Of a DNA stretch of 55,266 nt, positions 312 to 52,265 are shown one piece after another. The notes under the pieces were generated by a model that had not been told where the DNA came from, did not search any database, and saw only the letters and a program-made list of their open reading frames with translations. The position numbers were made by a program, and so were the translations under genes. The DNA comes from a virus. The stretch's first letter is position 1, and every line of letters starts with the position of its first letter. Location of the stretch: IMG/VR virus record IMGVR_UViG_3300037244_000023; one strand, 5' to 3'.

Positions 312-386
312 TGGGGAGTAGCCAAATGGTAAGGCACCGCGCTTTGAACGCGGCTATTGAAGGTTCGATTCCTTCCTCCCCAGCCA
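312..386 (+). tRNA. tRNA-Gln (anticodon UUG) with encoded CCA
   Basis: Cloverleaf read by hand. Acceptor TGGGGAG/CTCCCCA, anticodon stem CCGCG/CGCGG, loop CTTTGAA, T arm GAAGG-TTCGATT-CCTTC, discriminator G, then CCA. Confidence 0.9.
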
Positions 387-37273: not shown

Positions 37274-37513
37274 TTAGGTTGCTGACGTTGTATTGCTAGG
37301 GTTGATAAGGCTTAATAGGTCTTTCACTAGCGCAATGCGCCCCTGGATGATGTTGATACAAACGGGGTCACGTTCAATCTTCTCCAAATTATCGCGGTAA
37401 CTTTCCCGCGCACGGATAAGCCATTCAGCTAAAATTTGCATCTGCTCGGATTGGTGCATCGCGCTGAGTTTGGTGCAAAGTTGAATGATCGGGACTTCTT
37501 CAAACCGTCTCAT
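37274..37513 (-). CDS. Hypothetical protein (79 aa)
   Basis: ORF from the track; its start overlaps the portal stop. Confidence 0.5.
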   Translation of the reverse strand: MRRFEEVPIIQLCTKLSAMHQSEQMQILAEWLIRARESYRDNLEKIERDPVCINIIQGRIALVKDLLSLINPSNTTSAT

Positions 37514-39807
37514 CGCCTTCGCCCCCTATGAGTAGTCGCTGGTTTAGAGGGACGGGTGGGAGGGGCTTTGGTCGGAGCCGCACCTTCTTCCGGCTGGGGC
37601 AATAGGTGGGGATGCCGTTCAAGCGGGTTATGCGCCGGTTCAAATGGGCGATTCCCCATCTCATGCCCAATCTGGCTGGCTTCGTTGACGTTGCCAAGGT
37701 GCGCCATGTGGTCTTCTTCTGCCATGGCACCCGTGATCGCCGGGGTATTGATGTTGTAAATCTGGTTGGCGAGTTGCATATAAGCCAGCCGCAGGGGGCT
37801 ATTCTCTGGGGCTTCCTTGACCAGTTCGATCACCGCATCCTTGAGTGGCATCTCTGCCCGCAGTTTCGGCTGGGCCTGGACACTGGCCTGGATGCCAGCA
37901 TTGTAAGCGGCATTCTTCTGGGCTTCCGCAGCCTTCTTCTGCTGAATTTCCAGATATTCGGAATCAGAATAGACCAAATCCTCATTTACCAGACCACTAT
38001 AGCGCAGGTAACTGTTGAAGAAATTGGACATCTTCAAGCGGTCTGCTTGTTCCGGCAGGTTGCCGATGTTCTGGAGCAAGAGTTGCATAGCTTCAGTCAG
38101 GGATTCCCGCGCCAGCAAGCCCTTCACCCCATGAGCGGTAACCCGGTATGCGCCCTGAATGGCCGGGTCTTTGGAGAACATCTGGAAGAACCGGATCTTC
38201 TTCTGAGTGCTGGGAACGATATAGTTGGCTTCAATATTGTAAACAGCAGTTTTGAGCGTGGTCAGCGCATTGTTCCACTGGAGGTTCGCGCCACCGAAGG
38301 TCCGGTTATGGGCACCTTCGGTTGAACCATTCAGGAACTTGGGGAGGCCAGTCTGTTCATCCGCAAGCCGTTCCTCATTCTGCTGAATTTGCAGCATCTC
38401 CGCGAATTCATAGGTGGGCATGAAGAATTCGATGGGCTTCATGGTGGTACCGATCTTGCCCCGAACACCCCAAATCTTACGGGGAGCAATCTCCAGGACA
38501 GTGGTGATGTCTGCCAATTGGTCTACATCCACCATCATCTGTGGGGCAACGCACATAGCCATGGCATCCATCAGTGCTCGTTCACACCCCTGAATGCCAT
38601 CATGTTGATCGAACATCATCTCTGCAACGCCAACACCCCAGATCGAGTTGGTCGCAATGGAGTAGGGCACAAAGTAGAAGGGAAGCCGCTCATTATGCAG
38701 TTCGCTGATGGCTACCTTGATAACCTCATTGCCCATCACCCAAATCTGAGCCACCAGCCGACTATCCATCTGCTTCCTGGTGATTCCTTTAACGCCATTA
38801 TCAGCAAGATCCTTGCCGGTCAGATAGCCCCACCATTGGAAGCATACGAACCGGCCATTGGGTACCGTCTGCTGGGGTTGTTTGTTTAAACTGTTAACCG
38901 ATGTTTCCCAGAAAGTCGGTTGCCAAATCCCATTAGGATGCTTCTCTAAAAGGTCTTTGATTTTCTCTTTATCAAAGGTGGGGTCATCCATCATCCCCAT
39001 GACCTGACCCTTGCCTAGCGGCATCCGCCAGATCATAAACCGAGCCATTTCAACCGTGGTTGCACCGGGGTCCGGGTAAATATCCAGAGGGCAAATGCGT
39101 TCCATCTGGGGCAGATATTCATCAAACAGCCCCATGTCGATCATCTGCTTCAGTGCCTTCTTATTGAAGGGCTTCTTTTCTACCGGGGTCCAAACGGATG
39201 AGTCTTCTTCCTCATCCTCTGCGGGTTCTTCCGATATTTCAGAATTCTGAATGGCCAGCGGCCCCATGACAATGCCGGTGCCGAACACCACCAGATCCCA
39301 CAGAACCAACAGCAACTTATCCGTCAGGCGAGTATAATCATCGCCTTTCTTGATTTTTGCGGTTAGCCTATCAGCCTTCTTCCCGGCTGCCTGGAATAGC
39401 ATGTCCCGAATTTGGTCAACTGGGGTGCCCTTCTGGAGCAACCCCCACGCTGCCTTCGGGTCCATCGCTTCTGGGTCTGGGTCAATAGTGAAGCAATCCT
39501 GCCCAGGAGGGCAAACAATAGGCATCAAAAGAGCAACAGCGGTCTGTAGTTTGGGCCTAGTGGAGTTTACTGCTGCTTGGCTAGTTGTTGACTCTGAACT
39601 ATCGTCCAGTAAATAATATGCACGGCTGTTAAATAGTGCCCGCAGAAAGACTTGCTGTTCCTGGAAAATGCGGGCTGAAGATGCCATTTGGAAATCGTGC
39701 ATCACTCTTACTGCAAGGGTTTCACCATCCCTACCGCCACCACCATACCCCTCAACTACTGATGGGGGGGCAGACGGTTCTGATATTAATGAAAGCCCTT
39801 GGGGCAT
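37510..39807 (-). CDS. Portal protein (putative, 765 aa)
   Basis: Called from size and position, immediately downstream of TerL and upstream of the scaffold and coat genes. Confidence 0.7.
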   Translation of the reverse strand: MPQGLSLISEPSAPPSVVEGYGGGGRDGETLAVRVMHDFQMASSARIFQEQQVFLRALFNSRAYYLLDDSSESTTSQAAVNSTRPKLQTAVALLMPIVCPPGQDCFTIDPDPEAMDPKAAWGLLQKGTPVDQIRDMLFQAAGKKADRLTAKIKKGDDYTRLTDKLLLVLWDLVVFGTGIVMGPLAIQNSEISEEPAEDEEEDSSVWTPVEKKPFNKKALKQMIDMGLFDEYLPQMERICPLDIYPDPGATTVEMARFMIWRMPLGKGQVMGMMDDPTFDKEKIKDLLEKHPNGIWQPTFWETSVNSLNKQPQQTVPNGRFVCFQWWGYLTGKDLADNGVKGITRKQMDSRLVAQIWVMGNEVIKVAISELHNERLPFYFVPYSIATNSIWGVGVAEMMFDQHDGIQGCERALMDAMAMCVAPQMMVDVDQLADITTVLEIAPRKIWGVRGKIGTTMKPIEFFMPTYEFAEMLQIQQNEERLADEQTGLPKFLNGSTEGAHNRTFGGANLQWNNALTTLKTAVYNIEANYIVPSTQKKIRFFQMFSKDPAIQGAYRVTAHGVKGLLARESLTEAMQLLLQNIGNLPEQADRLKMSNFFNSYLRYSGLVNEDLVYSDSEYLEIQQKKAAEAQKNAAYNAGIQASVQAQPKLRAEMPLKDAVIELVKEAPENSPLRLAYMQLANQIYNINTPAITGAMAEEDHMAHLGNVNEASQIGHEMGNRPFEPAHNPLERHPHLLPQPEEGAAPTKAPPTRPSKPATTHRGRRR

Positions 39808-39869: not shown

Positions 39870-42260
39870 TTAAAGCCCTACCCTACGGTTCTTCGGTGTC
39901 CATTGGACAATTTTAGGGATTGGCTTAACAGTGGTGGTTCCTGGGACTCGCGCTTGGTCAAGGGCCATGATTGCATAACGGAGTGCGTCAATCGTATCAT
40001 CGTGACGTTCTGTTACCTTCATTGCCCCATTCTTCGCCTTTACCATGCGATATGCACCCATTTGCTTAATCAATTCCCTACAAGTAGAGAATATAAACAG
40101 CCGTTTCTCTGCAATCATTTCATTAATCATATGGATGGATTCAAAGACAGATCCACCTTTAGTGATGGCATCCGCAATATCTAACCCATCTTCGCGGAAC
40201 ATATCAAATACGCGCTTACCATCAGTGGGTGATCTTCGATGTGAGCTAGTATCAATCTTAAACTCAATATCCCCCCATGCCCTCAATGCTGCGGAGTGGA
40301 CCCCTGGCAGGTTCCCAGATCGCAGGTATTCTCTGTAAACATATACAGTTGGAGGTTCATTCCTATTTATATATTCCAACGCCAATGCAACCGCACTGGT
40401 CCCATGCTCAAGCCCAACATCTAGCCCACCAATCCTAGGCCAATGTGGCTCCACTTCAAATGGATCAATCACATAATCATCCCTACTGAAAGCAAAGATG
40501 CGCCCTTCCCCAGACCCAGATCGTCCATACAACCGGCTTTCCTGCATCCAAAGTGGCATGGTTTTCTTATGCATTTCGATTTCAGCAGGGTCCAAGGTCT
40601 TGTTCTCCTCCATGTGGAACTCGTAATGGCTACAGTAATCAGATGGCATTTTATCAAGTAGATCCAACATTTCTGGTTCCTCATCTTTTGGATAGTAAGA
40701 CATGATGATATACCCCTGATTATCAATCAGACGCATCTGCACTTCCACAAAGATGTCTATATCAGCTTGCTCATCGAACCATGCCACTTTCCATGCAAAG
40801 CCTTGGAATTTAGCAGCTCCTTGCTCTTTGACCATGAATTCAATACGACATATGCCCCCTGATGCATGTTTCACCAATACCCAGTCCAAACATCCATTGG
40901 TTCCGGCTCTCCATGCATAATCAACAATCAAGTCCTTGGGAATATAGCCAGTGCCAATCTCATGCGGTTCGCCCATCAACTTGACTTGTGCAGATTTCCT
41001 CATTTGTTCTGTACTGATTGAAATAACCCCATATATGTATGCTTCGGTAAATCTTAGCCCCTGCCACCAATCAGGGTAAATACCAGTTATGTGGCAAGCC
41101 ATTGTAAATGCACAACTTTCAGACTTCCCACTATTATGGTTTAAAATATCACCAATAAAATAATTATTGTAATCATCCATCAAAAAATCCCATACAAAAT
41201 CATTGCGGAGGTAATTGATTTGCATTACACTTCTATTGGAGGTGTTAAATGGAGTGGAAACCGAAAGTGGACGGGAGAGGCCGGGGCGTTGGGAAAAATC
41301 AAGCGGGGTATGATTGGCCCGTGGACCAGATGCGGCAATGGGTTGAAATTGATTTGTTGACTCATAAAGAAATTGGCAAAAGGCTTGGAGTAAATCCCAA
41401 GCTCGTTTCCAAAGCGTGTAAGCGGTTTGGAATACGCTGCCAACGCAGAGGGCCGCGTGGCGGCGAAGGGCACCCAGAGTGGAAGGGGGGAAGGAATTTT
41501 GACAAGTATGGGTATATTTTAGTCCATTGCCCAGGGCATCCAATGGCCCGAAAAATGGGGAAGGGGAGGAAGGCTGCGTACGTTCCCGAACATCGGCTTG
41601 TGATGGCTGAATTTCTTGGGCGCATGTTGGAACCGGGCGAAGTTGTCCATCATAAGAATAGCGATGTGACTGATAATCGGATTGAGAACCTTGAATTGTA
41701 TACTTCAAATGGTCAACATCTCCGAGATGAGCTTGCGGGTAGATGTCCCAATTGGTCGCCGGATGGGGAGCAAAGGCTTCGCGTTGCTCGACATAGAGGG
41801 AACATTCAAGCCATCCTTTTGGACCCCACAATAAATGATGCGGTGAAACTACAATTTCAGTTCCATCATCAAACACCAATTGGTATAGATCATCCTTTGC
41901 CTTTTGGAATGGTTGATGAGCCAAAGCAATAACCTTGTTCTTCCCATCCCATGCCCAAACATGAAAATCGCCATTGATTTGGTCAATCCGCATTGTCTGG
42001 TGTGCAACCGGGTCATAAATTAATTGTTCCCCCCCCATACACCTGTTCCCGCCTCTTACATCCACAATCTTGTGTTTATCCGCATGAATCGCAACTTGGT
42101 GATCCTGTGGCTCATATTGGTATAATTTGCCCTCTCGTTTGCGGGATGCCAATGCTTCAATAGCCTCAACCGCTGCATCCGCCTGGGCCAGAGACATCTG
42201 ATCCACCAACGCATCCAGTTCTGCTTCGGTAAACTTGCGTTTTTCGCCAGCCACTTGCAC
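39870..42260 (-). CDS. terL: Terminase large subunit precursor containing a 303-aa intein in the Walker-A loop
   Basis: The exteins join as VRGGNR|SGKSES, giving a G-x4-GKS P-loop. The C-terminal nuclease-type region includes GGLDVG and TIDALRYA. The putative start at 42260 is GTG. Confidence 0.9.
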   Translation of the reverse strand: MQVAGEKRKFTEAELDALVDQMSLAQADAAVEAIEALASRKREGKLYQYEPQDHQVAIHADKHKIVDVRGGNRCMGGEQLIYDPVAHQTMRIDQINGDFHVWAWDGKNKVIALAHQPFQKAKDDLYQLVFDDGTEIVVSPHHLLWGPKGWLECSLYVEQREAFAPHPATNWDIYPQAHLGDVDHLKYTIQGSQSDYQSHRYSYDGQLRPVPTCAQEIQPSQADVRERTQPSSPSPFFGPLDALGNGLKYTHTCQNSFPPSTLGALRRHAALCVGSVFQTAYTLWKRAWDLLQAFCQFLYESTNQFQPIAASGPRANHTPLDFSQRPGLSRPLSVSTPFNTSNRSVMQINYLRNDFVWDFLMDDYNNYFIGDILNHNSGKSESCAFTMACHITGIYPDWWQGLRFTEAYIYGVISISTEQMRKSAQVKLMGEPHEIGTGYIPKDLIVDYAWRAGTNGCLDWVLVKHASGGICRIEFMVKEQGAAKFQGFAWKVAWFDEQADIDIFVEVQMRLIDNQGYIIMSYYPKDEEPEMLDLLDKMPSDYCSHYEFHMEENKTLDPAEIEMHKKTMPLWMQESRLYGRSGSGEGRIFAFSRDDYVIDPFEVEPHWPRIGGLDVGLEHGTSAVALALEYINRNEPPTVYVYREYLRSGNLPGVHSAALRAWGDIEFKIDTSSHRRSPTDGKRVFDMFREDGLDIADAITKGGSVFESIHMINEMIAEKRLFIFSTCRELIKQMGAYRMVKAKNGAMKVTERHDDTIDALRYAIMALDQARVPGTTTVKPIPKIVQWTPKNRRVGL
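41133..42041 (-). mobile_element. Intein (TerL aa 74-376): Cys1 ... His-Asn, with Ser at +1
   Basis: N-terminal block CMGGEQLIYDP, block-B-like GTEIVVSPHHLLWG, and C-terminal block VWDFLMDDYNNYFIGDILNHN followed by S. TGT at 42039-42041 and AAT at 41133-41135 were verified on the reverse strand. Confidence 0.8.
41249..41932 (+). CDS. HNH homing-type endonuclease (HTH plus HNH_3 core), encoded antisense inside the TerL intein
   Basis: GGAGG lies 6 nt upstream of the ATG. It has the HTH segment LTHKEIGKRLGVNPKLVSKACKRFGI and the core GYILVHCPGHP...YVPEHRLVMAEFLGRMLEPGEVVHHKNSDVTDNRIENLELYTSNGQH. Confidence 0.9.
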   Translation: MEWKPKVDGRGRGVGKNQAGYDWPVDQMRQWVEIDLLTHKEIGKRLGVNPKLVSKACKRFGIRCQRRGPRGGEGHPEWKGGRNFDKYGYILVHCPGHPMARKMGKGRKAAYVPEHRLVMAEFLGRMLEPGEVVHHKNSDVTDNRIENLELYTSNGQHLRDELAGRCPNWSPDGEQRLRVARHRGNIQAILLDPTINDAVKLQFQFHHQTPIGIDHPLPFGMVDEPKQ

Positions 42261-51257: not shown

Positions 51258-51536
51258 ATGCCCACATCTGAAAATCTCATCTACGGTCTGGTTGGACTGG
51301 TCCTGGGGGGTGGCCTCGGGGTCTGGGGGGGCACCTACATCGGCAAACTGCTGGCCAAGGTCGAAGCATGGCTGGCCAAAGAGAAGGGGGCTGCCGAAGC
51401 GGATGCCGCCCATGTGGCCGCGCTGTTCAAGGAAGTGAAGACCCTGTATGCCGAGTTTGATGCCAAAGCCAAGGCGGATGCCGCTGCGGTGAAGGCGGCT
51501 ACGGATCAGATTGCCCAGGCGGTAGAGAAAGTTTAA
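51258..51536 (+). CDS. Small membrane-anchored Ala/Lys-rich helical protein (92 aa)
   Basis: TM segment LIYGLVGLVLGGGLGVWGG followed by an amphipathic helix. Confidence 0.6.
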   Translation: MPTSENLIYGLVGLVLGGGLGVWGGTYIGKLLAKVEAWLAKEKGAAEADAAHVAALFKEVKTLYAEFDAKAKADAAAVKAATDQIAQAVEKV

Positions 51537-51555
51537 ATATTTTTCACTCGGGGGG

Positions 51556-51583
51556 TTGACATGACCCATCCAAACCCGATACT
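51556..51583 (+). promoter_or_regulatory. Sigma70-like promoter (TTGACA-16-GATACT) in front of the ORF-free RNA locus
   Basis: Read directly, 20 nt after the stop of the 51258-51536 gene. Confidence 0.45.
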
Positions 51584-51928
51584 GGTTAAGCAACAGATCA
51601 TTCTCAACCCTTGGTAGTCAGGCCAACGAGTTCACCGTATTGCACCGAAAGGGGCAACGACTGCACGGGAAACCGTGCTCCAGCTGGAGCAATCCAGCAT
51701 TTGTGTAGCCGGGGCAACTCGGCATCTCGCAGGACGTGACTGGGCGTATCCCATGTCTGGGTTGGCATCCACAATACAAATGCCCCGTTGCCATATTTCT
51801 CCAAGGGTTCCATTCAGTTCTTTCACAATTCCCCGGCAGTCATGTGGTTGGTTACTTCTTTGGTAGAAAAACACCAACCGCTAGTTTCCTCCGGGTCAAG
51901 AATGTCACAGGGTAGCCACGGAAAGCGG

Positions 51929-52001
51929 TTCATCGTAGCTCAGCTGGTAGAGCGAAAGCCTTGTAAGCTTTAAGTCCCTGGTTCAATTCCAGGCATCCCC
52001 G
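51929..52001 (+). tRNA. tRNA-like element (Thr-type UGU anticodon arm) with an unpaired acceptor stem; probable tRNA-mimic module of a Y RNA, or a pseudo-tRNA
   Basis: D arm GCTC-AGCTGGTA-GAGC, anticodon arm AAAGC-CTTGTAA-GCTTT and T arm CCTGG-TTCAATT-CCAGG are all perfect. The acceptor strands TTCATCG / CATCCCC give only 1 of 7 pairs, and no CCA is encoded. Confidence 0.55.
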
Positions 52002-52043
52002 CGAGGGGTACCCCGCTCCCAATTTTCTCCCTGTGATCTTCTC

Positions 52044-52066
52044 GGCCCCCAAAAGGGGCCTTTTTT
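52044..52066 (+). terminator. Rho-independent terminator
   Basis: Stem ggcccc/ggggcc, 5-nt loop, then TTTTTT. Confidence 0.85.
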
Positions 52067-52076
52067 ATGGAGCAGT

Positions 52077-52256
52077 ATGAAAGCCATGAACGAAACCCCT
52101 AAACAACGCAAGCAGATTCAGGGGATGCAGAAGTTCGGCAGCGTTAACTTGTCAGCTTTGCATCTGTTGCGATCCAGATACACCCCAATCTCCAGAACTG
52201 GCCAATCCACCATGGGACGCATCAAGGCTCATGGCCGTCATCACAAACACATCTAG
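52077..52256 (+). CDS. Small basic protein (59 aa) immediately upstream of the TROVE gene
   Basis: GGAG lies 4 nt upstream. Translation is MKAMNETPKQRKQIQGMQKFG...HGRHHKHI. It is one residue below the track cutoff. Confidence 0.4.
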   Translation: MKAMNETPKQRKQIQGMQKFGSVNLSALHLLRSRYTPISRTGQSTMGRIKAHGRHHKHI

Positions 52257-52265
52257 GAGGGCAGT

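What the first reader, a model, noticed from the sequence alone, without database searches (positions are those of the whole stretch)
51899..52042. tRNA-like element with perfect D, anticodon and T arms but no acceptor helix, clamped by a long-range 14-position stem
Bases 51936-51993 fold as a canonical tRNA body: GCTC/GAGC D stem, AAAGC/GCTTT anticodon stem with a CTTGTAA loop (UGU, Thr-type), and CCTGG-TTCAATT-CCAGG T arm. The seven bases on each side (TTCATCG and CATCCCC) form only one pair, and no CCA is encoded. Instead the 3' side continues into a CCCC-GCGA-GGGG GNRA hairpin. AGCGG (51924-28) can pair with CCGCT (52013-17). The whole element is closed by 51899-51912 pairing with 52029-52042 (13 pairs including one GU, plus one mismatch), right before the terminator. 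This is not a decodable tRNA. It looks like a tRNA mimic embedded in a larger RNA, with the arm order of a normal tRNA.
Basis: seen in the sequence. Interest (0 to 1): 0.7.

Follow-up and report, generated by a model that had tools for sequence, protein, structure and literature searches.

The report
Phage Y RNA with tRNA-shaped domain
The tRNA look-alike is real, and is most likely a Y RNA, a small non-coding RNA that partners the Ro60 RNA-binding protein encoded 224 bases downstream in this phage; the kind is known, but this layout (tRNA arms in normal order, acceptor stem almost gone) is a variant the current RNA-family models miss.

Summary
Bases 51935-51994 match the Rfam tRNA model at positions 7-64 only (51.3 bits). 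ARAGORN calls no tRNA there.

The element lies 224 nt upstream of a Ro60/TROVE+vWA gene (52266-53729), on the same strand, in a phage genome. It is the last of three tandem stem-closed RNAs that share one closing module. A conserved sigma-70-like promoter precedes them and an intrinsic terminator follows.

Homologous elements lie upstream of Ro60 genes in phage contigs, metagenomes, and Holophagaceae and Verrucomicrobia genomes. All seven helices covary: 94% of cells pair, against 36-50% when the partners are slid.

I conclude it is a Y RNA. The long-range stem and internal loop form the presumed Ro60-binding module. The D, anticodon and T arms plus a GNRA hairpin form a tRNA-like effector module.

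Its arm order matches Deinococcus Yrn1, not the circularly permuted YrlA. Rfam's YrlA model does not detect it, and the Yrn1 model scores only 21.6 bits against a threshold of 80. Most relatives keep a 4-bp acceptor-like helix; this copy keeps 1 bp. The "anticodon" loop is not conserved.

Verdict: a new variant of a known kind. Ro60 binding and the effector are inferred, not shown.

The parts
51556..51583 (+). Sigma-70-like promoter (TTGACA, 16-nt spacer, GATACT) preceded by an A/T-rich stretch; presumed start of the Y-RNA array transcript.
   Evidence: Consensus scan, 10 of 12 matches. The same TTGAC[A/T]-N16-CCGATACT lies upstream of the first Y-like element in L125, L003, L001 and L204. Function is inferred.
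51606..51814 (+). Y-a: first stem-closed Y-RNA-like element. It has the same closing module (CCCUUGG-UAG-UCAGG ... AUAUUUCU-CCAAGGG) around a multi-hairpin middle with no T arm.
   Evidence: The fold closes it with a 9-bp terminal stem; z = -3.37 for 51605-51900. The closing module is conserved while the middle varies in L125 and L204. No Rfam match.
51832..51895 (+). Y-b: short hairpin Y-RNA-like element (CCCGG-CAG-UCAUG-UGGUUGGU ... ACCAACC-GCUAGUUUCCU-CCGGG), comparable to YrlB-type hairpin Y RNAs.
   Evidence: Conserved in L124, L001, L003 and L204. RNAalifold predicts 15 pairs, one of them with a compensatory change. It carries the shared 5' motif GGYAGYCA at 51835.
51899..51912 (+). 5' strand of the terminal (long-range) stem of Y-c, the element in the finding.
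   Evidence: MFE fold. Covariation across the family, for example C-G to U-A in L204.
51913..51923 (+). 5' side of the conserved internal loop (UAGCCACGGAA); together with the terminal stem, the presumed Ro60-binding module. G51920-G51921 pair with C52019-C52020.
   Evidence: GG-YAG-YNA is conserved in all 34 family members aligned and in Y-a and Y-b. The 2-bp helix switches between G-C and C-G. Ro60 binding is inferred, not tested.
51924..51928 (+). P2 5' strand (AGCGG), pairing with 52013-52017.
   Evidence: MFE fold. All five pairs show compensatory changes in the family; 98% of cells are paired.
51929..51937 (+). Linker UUCAUCG (tRNA positions 1-7) plus U8 and A9. G51935 pairs with C51994, the only acceptor-like pair.
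   Evidence: C[A/U]UCG-UA is nearly invariant across the family. In most relatives it forms about 4 bp with the CGAA/CGAG that follows the T arm.
51938..51953 (+). D arm (GCUC-AGCUGGUA-GAGC).
   Evidence: Rfam tRNA alignment, MFE fold; nearly invariant in the family.
51955..51971 (+). Anticodon-like arm (AAAGC-CUUGUAA-GCUUU).
   Evidence: All five stem pairs covary. Loop sequence and length (4-8 nt) are not conserved.
51977..51993 (+). T arm (CCUGG-UUCAAUU-CCAGG).
   Evidence: 100% of cells are paired, and three pairs show compensatory changes.
51997..52008 (+). GNRA-capped hairpin (CCCC-GCGA-GGGG) directly after the T arm; proposed stand-in for the acceptor stem, like the closed 'AS' hairpin of YrlA.
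   Evidence: MFE fold. Present in the whole family as a GNRA hairpin or a longer hairpin; its outer pair covaries. The stacking role is inferred.
52013..52028 (+). P2 3' strand (CCGCU), C52019-C52020, and the conserved 3' internal-loop strand CAAUUUUCU.
   Evidence: A(A/G)UUUUCU-CC is conserved across the family and in Y-a and Y-b.
52029..52042 (+). 3' strand of the terminal stem.
52044..52066 (+). Intrinsic terminator (GGCCCC-CAAAA-GGGGCC followed by UUUUUU).
   Evidence: Conserved in all close relatives.
52077..52256 (+). Small basic ORF (59 aa) between the Y RNA terminator and the Ro60 gene; link to the system unknown.
   Evidence: Only five homologues, 64-100% identical. Present in L001 and L204, absent in L003, L124 and L205. 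No Pfam or PHROG match.
52266..53729 (+). Ro60 orthologue (TROVE/HEAT ring plus vWA domain), 487 aa; presumed protein partner of the Y RNAs.
   Evidence: Pfam TROVE E 2.5e-15 plus weak vWA_Ro60 and VWA matches. PHROG 850 'RNA-binding protein' E 5e-43. More than 3400 homologues, several named 60 kDa SS-A/Ro.

Best explanation
The element at 51899-52042 is a phage-encoded Y RNA, the non-coding RNA partner of the Ro60 protein encoded 224 nt downstream.

Expression. It is the third of three tandem Y-type RNAs. They are probably transcribed from the conserved promoter at 51556-51583 and ended by the terminator at 52044-52066.

Two modules. The paired 5' and 3' ends, together with the conserved internal loop (5' GGG-UAGCCA..., 3' ...CAAUUUUCU-CCC), form the Ro60-binding module. 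All three RNAs in the array share this module. The interior forms a five-way junction. It holds a tRNA-shaped body: the D, anticodon-like and T arms, with every nucleotide needed for the tRNA tertiary contacts. It also holds a GNRA hairpin after the T arm, which takes the place of the acceptor stem.

Proposed action. By analogy with Deinococcus Yrn1 and Salmonella YrlA, the RNA would dock on the outer face of the Ro60 ring. There it could gate the ring, and its tRNA-like module could tether the ring to a partner, most plausibly host PNPase or another tRNA-recognising factor. This would redirect structured-RNA decay during infection.

Limits. With no acceptor helix, no CCA end and a non-conserved 'anticodon', it does not decode.

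Shown: the structure, its conservation and covariation, the linkage to Ro60, and the phage context. Inferred: Ro60 binding, the processing steps, the identity of the effector, and coaxial stacking of the GNRA hairpin on the T arm.
For: (1) The tRNA body is real. Read directly from the sequence, the tertiary-contact nucleotides are all present: U8:A14, G15:C48, G18:U55, G19:C56, U54:A58, G26:A44, A9 with U12-A23, and G46 with C13-G22.

(2) Linkage. A TROVE+vWA Ro60 gene starts 224 nt downstream on the same strand. This is the criterion Chen et al. 2014 (PMC4201824) used to identify bacterial and phage Y RNAs: within 4 kb, same strand.

(3) Family. A covariance model built from six close copies finds full-length matches next to and on the same strand as Ro60, upstream in nearly all cases. 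They occur in phage contigs, in metagenome loci (about 16 of 80), and in genome loci (about 19 of 80; Holophaga 107 bits, Acidobacteria, Saprospiraceae, Akkermansiaceae, Prosthecobacter).

(4) Covariation. On 21 sequences, 94.1% of cells pair, against 36-50% with partners slid. 32 of 38 pairs show compensatory changes, and 0 of 500 shuffles reach the observed value. An independent MAFFT plus RNAalifold run on 12 sequences predicts the same seven helices, with 19 of 31 pairs compensatory.

(5) A shared closing module. It flanks different interiors: Y-a, Y-b and Y-c in this window, and canonical permuted YrlA copies in sister loci L204, L003 and L128 (Rfam YrlA 28 bits on L204). That is the modular build described for Y RNAs.

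(6) Orientation. The Rfam Deinococcus Y RNA model aligns end to end with T arm on T arm, though well below its threshold. Chen et al. state that Yrn1 has this arm orientation, with an anticodon-like arm between the D and T arms.

(7) Precedent. Phage Ro60 with phage Y-like RNAs and host PNPase forms a RYPER-like complex in Thermus phage phiLo (PMC12135203).
Against: The published 5'-strand motif GNCGAAN0-1G is not present as written; the nearest sequence is ACGGAAAG. Rfam YrlA (RF02553) gives no hit, and Deinococcus_Y_RNA scores only 21.6 bits against a gathering score of 80. No experiment here shows transcription, Ro60 binding or any effector. For Yrn1, deleting the T arm did not visibly change complex assembly, so the role of the tRNA-like module is unknown even in the best-studied case. 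The covariation alignment A4 was fitted to the model, which favours that structure; offsets this only in part. The terminator between the RNA and the Ro60 gene would also fit a regulatory leader.
Confidence: 0.85

Rival explanations
1. It is a cis-acting leader of the Ro60 mRNA. The Y-like structures and the terminator would form an attenuator, so that Ro60 protein (or a tRNA-binding factor) binding the leader controls read-through into the small ORF and the Ro60 gene.
For: An intrinsic terminator lies between the element and the Ro60 gene in all close relatives. No separate promoter-like site for Ro60 was found in 51500-52400, so Ro60 expression may depend on read-through.
Against: No alternative (anti-terminator) pairing with the terminator stem is apparent: the terminator folds independently next to the closed element. 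Known Y RNAs are likewise encoded upstream of rsr on the same strand, co-transcribed and then processed. Arrays of 3-5 such elements with different interiors fit stable trans-acting RNAs better than a leader. The two roles are not mutually exclusive.
Confidence: 0.08
2. It is a precursor from which a working tRNA is cut out. RNase P and 3' processing would release a tRNA-Thr(UGU)-like molecule that is then CCA-tailed, and the flanks would be processing signals only.
For: In relatives L003 and L205 the same position has 6 of 7 acceptor pairs, and ARAGORN calls it tRNA-Ile(GAU) or tRNA-Thr(UGU). M. smegmatis YrlA is cut by RNase P and CCA-tailed in vivo.
Against: In this window only one acceptor pair exists, and ARAGORN makes no call. 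Across the family the acceptor-like helix is usually 4 bp, and the anticodon loop is often 4-6 or 8 nt, for example UUCG. Both are incompatible with decoding. The flanks are the most conserved part and covary.
Confidence: 0.03
3. It is a decayed tRNA pseudogene, or an attP-like tRNA fragment left by integration, with fortuitous flanking complementarity.
For: Phages often carry tRNA genes and integrate into them. A real tRNA-Gln lies in the same genome.
Against: All seven helices, including the flanks, are conserved with compensatory changes in dozens of loci, always beside Ro60. The nearest sequences are other embedded modules, not real tRNAs. There is no exact core match in viral contigs. No integrase context was seen near it.
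Confidence: 0.02

Closest known systems
Deinococcus radiodurans Yrn1 (Rfam RF01053 Deinococcus_Y_RNA)
   Same: It is a Ro60-bound RNA encoded upstream of rsr on the same strand. The terminal stem comes from the paired 5' and 3' ends. The interior has normal tRNA arm order: a D-like region, then a 5-bp anticodon-like arm, then a T arm. The Rfam model aligns end to end with T arm on T arm, including the GCAU that follows it.
   Different: The score is far below the family threshold (21.6 against 80 bits). Yrn1 lacks a clear D arm and has a 6-nt loop. This element has a full D arm, a 7-nt loop, a 5-nt variable region, and an extra GNRA hairpin after the T arm. Its Ro-binding strand is not the metazoan-like GGGCCGAAG helix of Yrn1.
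YrlA (Rfam RF02553; Chen et al. 2014, PMC4201824; crystal structure 6CU1, bioRxiv 10.1101/312249)
   Same: It is a Y RNA whose effector module mimics tRNA, with a closed hairpin in place of a free acceptor/CCA end, found in bacteria and phages next to Ro60. In sister loci (L204, L003, L128), canonical YrlA copies carry the same closing module (GG-UAG-YCA......AAUUUUCU-CC, and the GGUU(A)C(A/U)UCG linker) as this element.
   Different: YrlA is circularly permuted: T arm, then acceptor-stem hairpin, then D arm, with the Ro stem where the anticodon stem would be. Here the order is D, anticodon arm, T, and the Ro stem leaves from the acceptor side. Rfam YrlA gives no hit. The GNCGAAN0-1G motif is not matched exactly.
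Thermus phage phiLo Yrl1/Yrl2 with phiRo60 (PMC12135203)
   Same: These are phage-encoded Ro60 with tandem Y-like RNAs immediately upstream. They were shown to bind the phage Ro60 and to assemble with host PNPase.
   Different: The Ro60 proteins are only 26% identical. In the passages read, the phiLo RNAs were picked out by stem structure and a CGAA motif, with no tRNA-like domain mentioned. No sequence relation to this element was tested.
Canonical tRNA (Rfam RF00005)
   Same: D, anticodon and T arms and all tertiary-contact nucleotides match; 51.3 bits over model positions 7-64.
   Different: There is no acceptor helix (1 pair) and no CCA. It is embedded in a larger closed RNA. The 'anticodon' is not conserved among relatives.

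Membership tests
Bacterial/phage Y RNA (Ro60-associated ncRNA, as defined by Chen et al. 2014) | Encoded within about 4 kb of a Ro60/TROVE gene and on the same strand | tested here: met
   The element ends at 52042. The TROVE+vWA ORF starts at 52266 on the + strand. Nearly all family hits in 160 Ro60 loci are on the Ro60 strand and upstream of the gene.
Bacterial/phage Y RNA (Ro60-associated ncRNA, as defined by Chen et al. 2014) | [quoted passage not shown] | tested here: met
   13 of 14 positions pair. The helix is kept with compensatory changes in 11 of 14 pairs across the family and is predicted independently.
Bacterial/phage Y RNA (Ro60-associated ncRNA, as defined by Chen et al. 2014) | Conserved 5'-strand motif GNCGAAN0-1G (proposed Ro60 contact) | tested here: not met
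   There is no CGAA in 51899-51935; the nearest sequence is ACGGAAAG. A different motif, GG-YAG-YNA, is conserved in all 34 aligned members. Canonical YrlA copies in sister loci share it, so the binding module looks homologous but diverged.
Bacterial/phage Y RNA (Ro60-associated ncRNA, as defined by Chen et al. 2014) | Physically bound and stabilised by Ro60 | not testable with these tools
   Needs immunoprecipitation or a gel shift with the 52266-53729 protein.
YrlA (Rfam RF02553) | Permuted arm order: T arm, acceptor-stem hairpin, D arm, with the Ro stem in the anticodon-stem position | tested here: not met
   The order here is D (51938-53), anticodon arm (51955-71), T (51977-93).
YrlA (Rfam RF02553) | Score at or above the Rfam gathering threshold (69 bits) | tested here: not met
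   No RF02553 match at E up to 10 in 51700-52300. The model is in the library: it hits L204 1935-2048 at 28.1 bits.
YrlA (Rfam RF02553) | tRNA-like D and T loops with the nucleotides for tRNA tertiary contacts, and no free CCA end | tested here: met
   U8, A14, G15/C48, G18, G19, U54, U55, C56 and A58 are all present, read and the alignment. A closed GNRA hairpin follows the T arm.
Deinococcus Yrn1 (Rfam RF01053) | Normal orientation: anticodon-like arm between the D region and the T arm, inside the Ro stem | tested here: met
   The orientation of Yrn1 is taken from Chen et al. 2014.
Deinococcus Yrn1 (Rfam RF01053) | Score at or above the Rfam gathering threshold (80 bits) | tested here: not met
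   21.6 bits, E 0.24, over the full model length.
tRNA gene | Seven-base-pair acceptor stem that closes the cloverleaf | tested here: not met
   One pair, G7-C66. The Rfam match stops at model positions 7 and 64. ARAGORN makes no call.
tRNA gene | Anticodon conserved among orthologues | tested here: not met
   Six close copies have loops CUUGUAA, CUGAUAA (twice), CCGCAAG, CUUCGGA and UUUGUAA. Wider relatives have loops of 4-8 nt.

The most novel reading that the evidence does not exclude
Normal-order tRNA-like Y RNAs form a distinct, widespread and so far uncatalogued Y RNA class in phages, Holophagaceae and Verrucomicrobia. Phages deploy them in arrays of 3-5 RNAs that share one Ro60-docking module but carry different effector modules. 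In the phage lineage the module keeps a true 7-nt anticodon-type loop whose triplet changes between near-identical phages. This might mean the RNA serves as bait or decoy for host tRNA-targeting enzymes (anticodon nucleases, modification or repair enzymes), handing them or their products to Ro60 and PNPase. That would link phage Ro60 to the tRNA-damage arms race.
Probability: 0.1. Interest if true: 0.8.

Novelty: new variant of a known kind. Interest (0 to 1): 0.45.

Why it matters
Y RNAs and Ro60 are conserved from bacteria to humans, yet the job of the tRNA-like module is still unknown. A second, non-permuted way of building that module uses the same Ro60-docking flanks as canonical YrlA, sometimes in the same array. 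This says that selection acts on the tRNA shape itself rather than on one ancestral sequence, and it gives natural variants for finding the effector.

It also has a practical side. ARAGORN calls several of these elements as tRNA genes (Ile, Thr, His, Asn, Met), so they are probably mis-annotated in genomes, while Rfam's Y RNA models miss them. A dedicated covariance model would fix both problems. Phage arrays of several Y RNAs with one Ro60 suggest that a phage can aim one RNA-decay adaptor at several partners.

Tried and rejected
- DNA search of GenBank phages with 51850-53750 in distant mode found nothing. tblastn with Ro60 found no cultured phage above 42% identity. The lineage is uncultured.
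- The 14-mer GGTTCATCGTAGCT in viral contigs mostly hit an unrelated coding gene. Only L001 and L003/L078 carried the element. That scan was largely wasted.
- A 22-nt exact pattern from the anticodon arm, searched in viral contigs, found nothing. This gives no sign of a recently captured tRNA.
- My first regex classifier for D arms failed because greedy parsing mis-split the D loop. I replaced it with a covariance model.
- Model R1 on cultured-phage Ro60 loci found nothing in the Vibrio phage or the uncultured 635-kb phage. Xanthomonas phage MET23-P3 gave only a partial D-AC-T-GNRA match (28 bits) upstream of its Ro60.
- Rfam scan of 51540-51900, covering Y-a and Y-b, found no meaningful match.
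- Pfam and PHROGs on the 59-aa ORF found nothing.
- Sim et al. 2020 (Annu Rev Microbiol) could not be read because it is not held. I therefore cannot exclude that this arm order has been noted in that review or in the supplements of Chen et al. 2014.
- Rejected explanations: a functional tRNA, a tRNA pseudogene or attP remnant, and tmRNA (ARAGORN finds none).
Full report
**1. The observation**

Rfam's tRNA model matches 51935-51994 on the + strand at 51.3 bits (E 3.7e-8 over the whole window). The match covers only model positions 7-64 of 71, which is the D, anticodon and T arms plus the single 7:66 pair of the acceptor stem. ARAGORN reports one tRNA in the window, tRNA-Gln at 312-386, and nothing here.

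- a terminal stem, 51899-51912 with 52029-52042 (13 pairs, one U/C mismatch);
- AGCGG (51924-28) with CCGCU (52013-17);
- the D arm at 51938-53;
- an anticodon-type arm at 51955-71 with loop CUUGUAA;
- the T arm at 51977-93;
- a CCCC-GCGA-GGGG hairpin at 51997-52008;

The fold has z = -2.57 against dinucleotide shuffles. The seven bases before U8 (UUCAUCG) and the seven after the T stem (CAUCCCC) make one pair. A terminator hairpin with a T-run follows at 52044-52066.

**2. Context**

The window is a phage genome. PHROG matches include terminase large subunit (39870-42260), terminase small subunit, head-tail adaptor/portal (37510-39807), and an internal virion protein.

The ORF at 52266-53729 starts 224 nt after the element on the same strand. 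It encodes a 487-aa protein with a Pfam TROVE domain (E 2.5e-15) and weak vWA/vWA_Ro60 matches. It also matches PHROG 850 'RNA-binding protein' (E 5e-43). It has thousands of homologues, several labelled 60 kDa SS-A/Ro ribonucleoprotein. It is a Ro60 orthologue.

Chen et al. 2014 (PMC4201824) found that bacterial and phage Y RNAs lie within 4 kb of the Ro60 gene on the same strand, and that at least one per species carries a tRNA-like domain. This fits the element's position and gave the working hypothesis.

**3. Relatives**

Searches seeded with the Ro60 protein gave:
- phage contigs L001 and L003;
- 80 metagenome loci;
- 80 genome loci;
- contigs for two close homologues, L204 and L205.

Six distinct close copies exist, with Ro60 74-94% identical: window, L124, L001, L003, L204 and L205. 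They have nearly identical flanks but different tRNA-like cores. Compensatory changes are visible by eye:
- C-G to U-A in the terminal stem of L204;
- A-U to G-C in P2;
- G-C to C-G in the 2-bp helix;
- different but paired anticodon and T stems;
- C-G, G-C, G-U and A-U at the outer pair of the GNRA hairpin.

I built covariance model R1 from these six. It finds full-length matches (model positions 1-144) on the Ro60 strand, upstream of the gene in nearly all cases, in much more distant loci:
- L136 at 99 bits, L140 at 77, L192 at 75, and others;
- in named genomes, Holophaga sp. at 107 bits, Holophagaceae at 105 and 91, an Acidobacteria MAG at 96, plus Saprospiraceae, Akkermansiaceae, Prosthecobacter and other Verrucomicrobia.

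About 16 of 80 metagenome loci and about 19 of 80 genome loci have a strong full-length hit. This is a lower bound, because the model came from one narrow clade.

**4. Covariation**

I counted pairs on the 21-sequence model-based alignment:
- 94.1% of cells form standard pairs, against 36-50% when the 3' partners are slid by 1-3 columns;
- 32 of 38 pairs show changes on both sides;
- 0 of 500 column shuffles reach the observed values.

Each of the seven helices is supported: terminal stem 87% paired, 2-bp helix 93%, P2 98%, D 99%, anticodon stem 97%, T 100%, hairpin 94%.

That alignment is fitted to the model, so I also ran MAFFT plus RNAalifold on 12 sequences. It predicts the same architecture, with 19 of 31 pairs compensatory. 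The long-range clamp is therefore a selected structure, not chance complementarity.

**5. Family anatomy**

From 5' to 3':
- the terminal stem;
- a conserved GG-YAG-YNA;
- P2;
- a nearly invariant U(A/C/U)C(A/U)UCG-UA;
- a nearly invariant D arm (GCUCA..GGUAGAGC);
- a 5-bp stem whose loop varies in sequence and length (4-8 nt; UUCG, UACC, CCCGC, or 7-nt loops);
- a 5-nt variable region;
- the T arm (GGUUCRAnYCC);
- a short 3' strand that pairs with C(A/U)UCG;
- a hairpin, GNRA-capped in the phage and Holophaga clade and longer in Verrucomicrobia;
- the P2 3' strand;
- A(A/G)UUUUCU-CC;
- the terminal stem 3' strand.

The acceptor-like helix is usually 4 bp (CUUCG with CGAA/CGAG). It reaches 7 of 7 pairs in L208 and 6 of 7 in L003 and L205. 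It shows covariation, with G7-C66 changing to A7-U66 in L140 (read). It has shrunk to 1-2 bp in the window, L124, L001, L204 and the Holophaga copies. So 'no acceptor helix' is true of this copy but not of the family.

ARAGORN calls several family members as tRNAs (Ile-GAU, Thr-UGU, His, Asn, Met). These would be annotation errors.

The window's core is closest, at about 80% identity, to other embedded modules. It is not close to genuine tRNA-Thr(UGU) genes in the same data (38 of 50 positions). A 22-nt exact search in viral contigs found nothing. I see no sign of recent tRNA capture.

**6. An array of Y RNAs**

The region upstream of the element holds two more stem-closed RNAs.
- Y-a (51606-51814) is closed by AACCCUUGG with CCAAGGGUU. 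Its interior has several hairpins and no T arm.
- Y-b (51832-51895) is a single long hairpin.

Both carry the same closing module as the finding:
- on the 5' side, GG-UAG-UCA (Y-a), GG-CAG-UCA (Y-b) and GGG-UAG-CCA (Y-c);
- on the 3' side, AUAUUUCU-CC, AGUUUCCU-CC and AAUUUUCU-CC.

The 8-mer GGYAGYCA occurs at 51613, 51835 and 51911. The background is about five occurrences per strand in 55 kb. Y-a's closing module is conserved in L125 and L204, while its interior differs in length and sequence.

In sister loci the same module closes canonical, circularly permuted YrlA RNAs (T arm, then GNRA acceptor hairpin, then D arm). These are in L204 at about 1893-2056, in L003 at about 2595-2739, and in L128. 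Rfam's YrlA model recognises the L204 copy weakly, at 28 bits with E 0.001. L204 appears to carry five such RNAs in a row.

A promoter-like site lies at 51556-51583 in the window. The same TTGAC(A/T)-N16-CCGATACT is conserved ahead of the first element in L125, L003, L001 and L204.

One docking module on interchangeable interiors is the modular design described for Y RNAs. I count this as the strongest indirect evidence that the terminal stem and loop form the Ro60 site.

**7. Mechanism**

Shown here: a conserved, covarying RNA structure with a tRNA-shaped body, linked to a phage Ro60 gene, with a conserved promoter-like site and a terminator.

From published work on Yrn1, YrlA and phage phiLo:
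- Y RNAs bind the outer surface of the Ro60 ring through the terminal stem;
- they tether Ro60 to PNPase, improving decay of structured RNA.

Inferred for this element:
- it does the same for the phage Ro60, probably with host PNPase;
- the GNRA hairpin after the T arm plays the part of YrlA's closed acceptor hairpin, stacking on the T stem to complete the L shape;
- the RNA neither decodes nor accepts an amino acid.

The partner of the tRNA-like module is unknown, even for Yrn1 and YrlA.

**8. Comparison with known families**

Chen et al. state that Yrn1 and YrlA differ in the orientation of the D and T arms, and in whether the stem-loop between them stands for the acceptor or the anticodon arm.

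This element has the Yrn1 orientation, and the Rfam Yrn1 model aligns with it end to end. The score, 21.6 bits, is far below the 80-bit threshold. The element also has a complete D arm, a variable region and an extra hairpin that Yrn1 lacks.

Its docking module resembles that of the YrlA copies in sister loci. It fails YrlA's defining arm order and Rfam threshold, and the GNCGAAN0-1G motif is not matched exactly.

It is therefore a Y RNA by context and architecture, but a member of neither curated family.

**9. Novelty and limits**

The kind is known: tRNA-mimicking Y RNAs beside Ro60, including in phages. New relative to what I could read are:
- a widespread subclass with normal arm order, a full D/anticodon/T body and a degenerate acceptor;
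- a docking module shared with permuted YrlA in the same arrays.

I could not read the 2020 review by Sim et al. or the supplements of Chen et al., so prior mention cannot be excluded. No binding or expression evidence exists here.

I rate it a new variant of a known kind, with interest 0.45.

Noticed in passing
window 51606-51814: Y-a is a roughly 209-nt stem-closed RNA with the same closing module as the finding. Its interior is multi-hairpin (several GNRA or GCAA loops) and is not tRNA-like. That interior differs greatly between close relatives: the window has an extra hairpin, GCUGGAGCAAUCCAGC, that L125 lacks. No Rfam match.
   Followed up: partly
window 51832-51895: Y-b is a conserved 64-nt hairpin with the same GG-CAG-UCA and UUUCCU-CC closing module. 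Its stem-loop contains UGGUUGGUUACUUC, which resembles the GGUUACUUCG linker of canonical YrlA. It is comparable to the YrlB-type hairpin Y RNAs.
   Followed up: partly
window 52077-52256: A conserved small basic ORF (59 aa, ending ...GRIKAHGRHHKHI) with its own GGAG ribosome-binding site lies between the Y RNA terminator and the Ro60 gene. It is present in L001 and L204 but absent in L003, L124 and L205. Only five homologues exist in 5.8 billion proteins, and no family matches.
   Followed up: partly
L204 1570-2290: One phage contig appears to carry five Y-type RNAs in tandem behind one promoter: a Y-a-like RNA, a normal-order tRNA-like RNA with a UUCG 'anticodon' loop (1766-1887), a canonical permuted YrlA (about 1893-2056), a Y-b hairpin, and the homologue of the finding (2134-2276). 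Two real tRNAs lie just upstream (1395-1545).
   Followed up: partly
L003 2847-2920, L205 68-143, L140, L192, L151, L166, L223, L226: ARAGORN calls the embedded tRNA-like modules of several family members as tRNA genes (Ile-GAU, Thr-UGU, Asn, His, Met). Their 'acceptor' 5' strands are the conserved Y RNA linker (UUCAUCG or UCCUUCG). These are probably mis-annotated as tRNAs in public genomes.
   Followed up: partly
window 51899-52042 compared with L124 466-608: The two phages have Ro60 proteins 94% identical and almost identical Y RNA flanks. Yet the anticodon-arm and T-arm sequences differ at many positions, and the loop triplet differs (UGU against GAU). The tRNA-like core either evolves much faster than its flanks or is exchanged by recombination. 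This is unexplained.
   Followed up: no
L290 (Xanthomonas phage MET23-P3) 2295-2365: A partial match (28 bits) to the D, anticodon and T arms plus GNRA-hairpin part of the model lies about 100 nt upstream of this cultured phage's Ro60-like gene. It may offer a culturable system for this class.
   Followed up: no
window 312-386: A genuine tRNA-Gln(UUG) lies at the other end of the window. In L001 and L204, real tRNAs sit directly upstream of the Y RNA promoter (tRNA-Gln and tRNA-Pro in L001). The window may therefore be a permuted representation of a circular or terminally redundant genome in which tRNA-Gln lies about 4 kb from the array.
   Followed up: no
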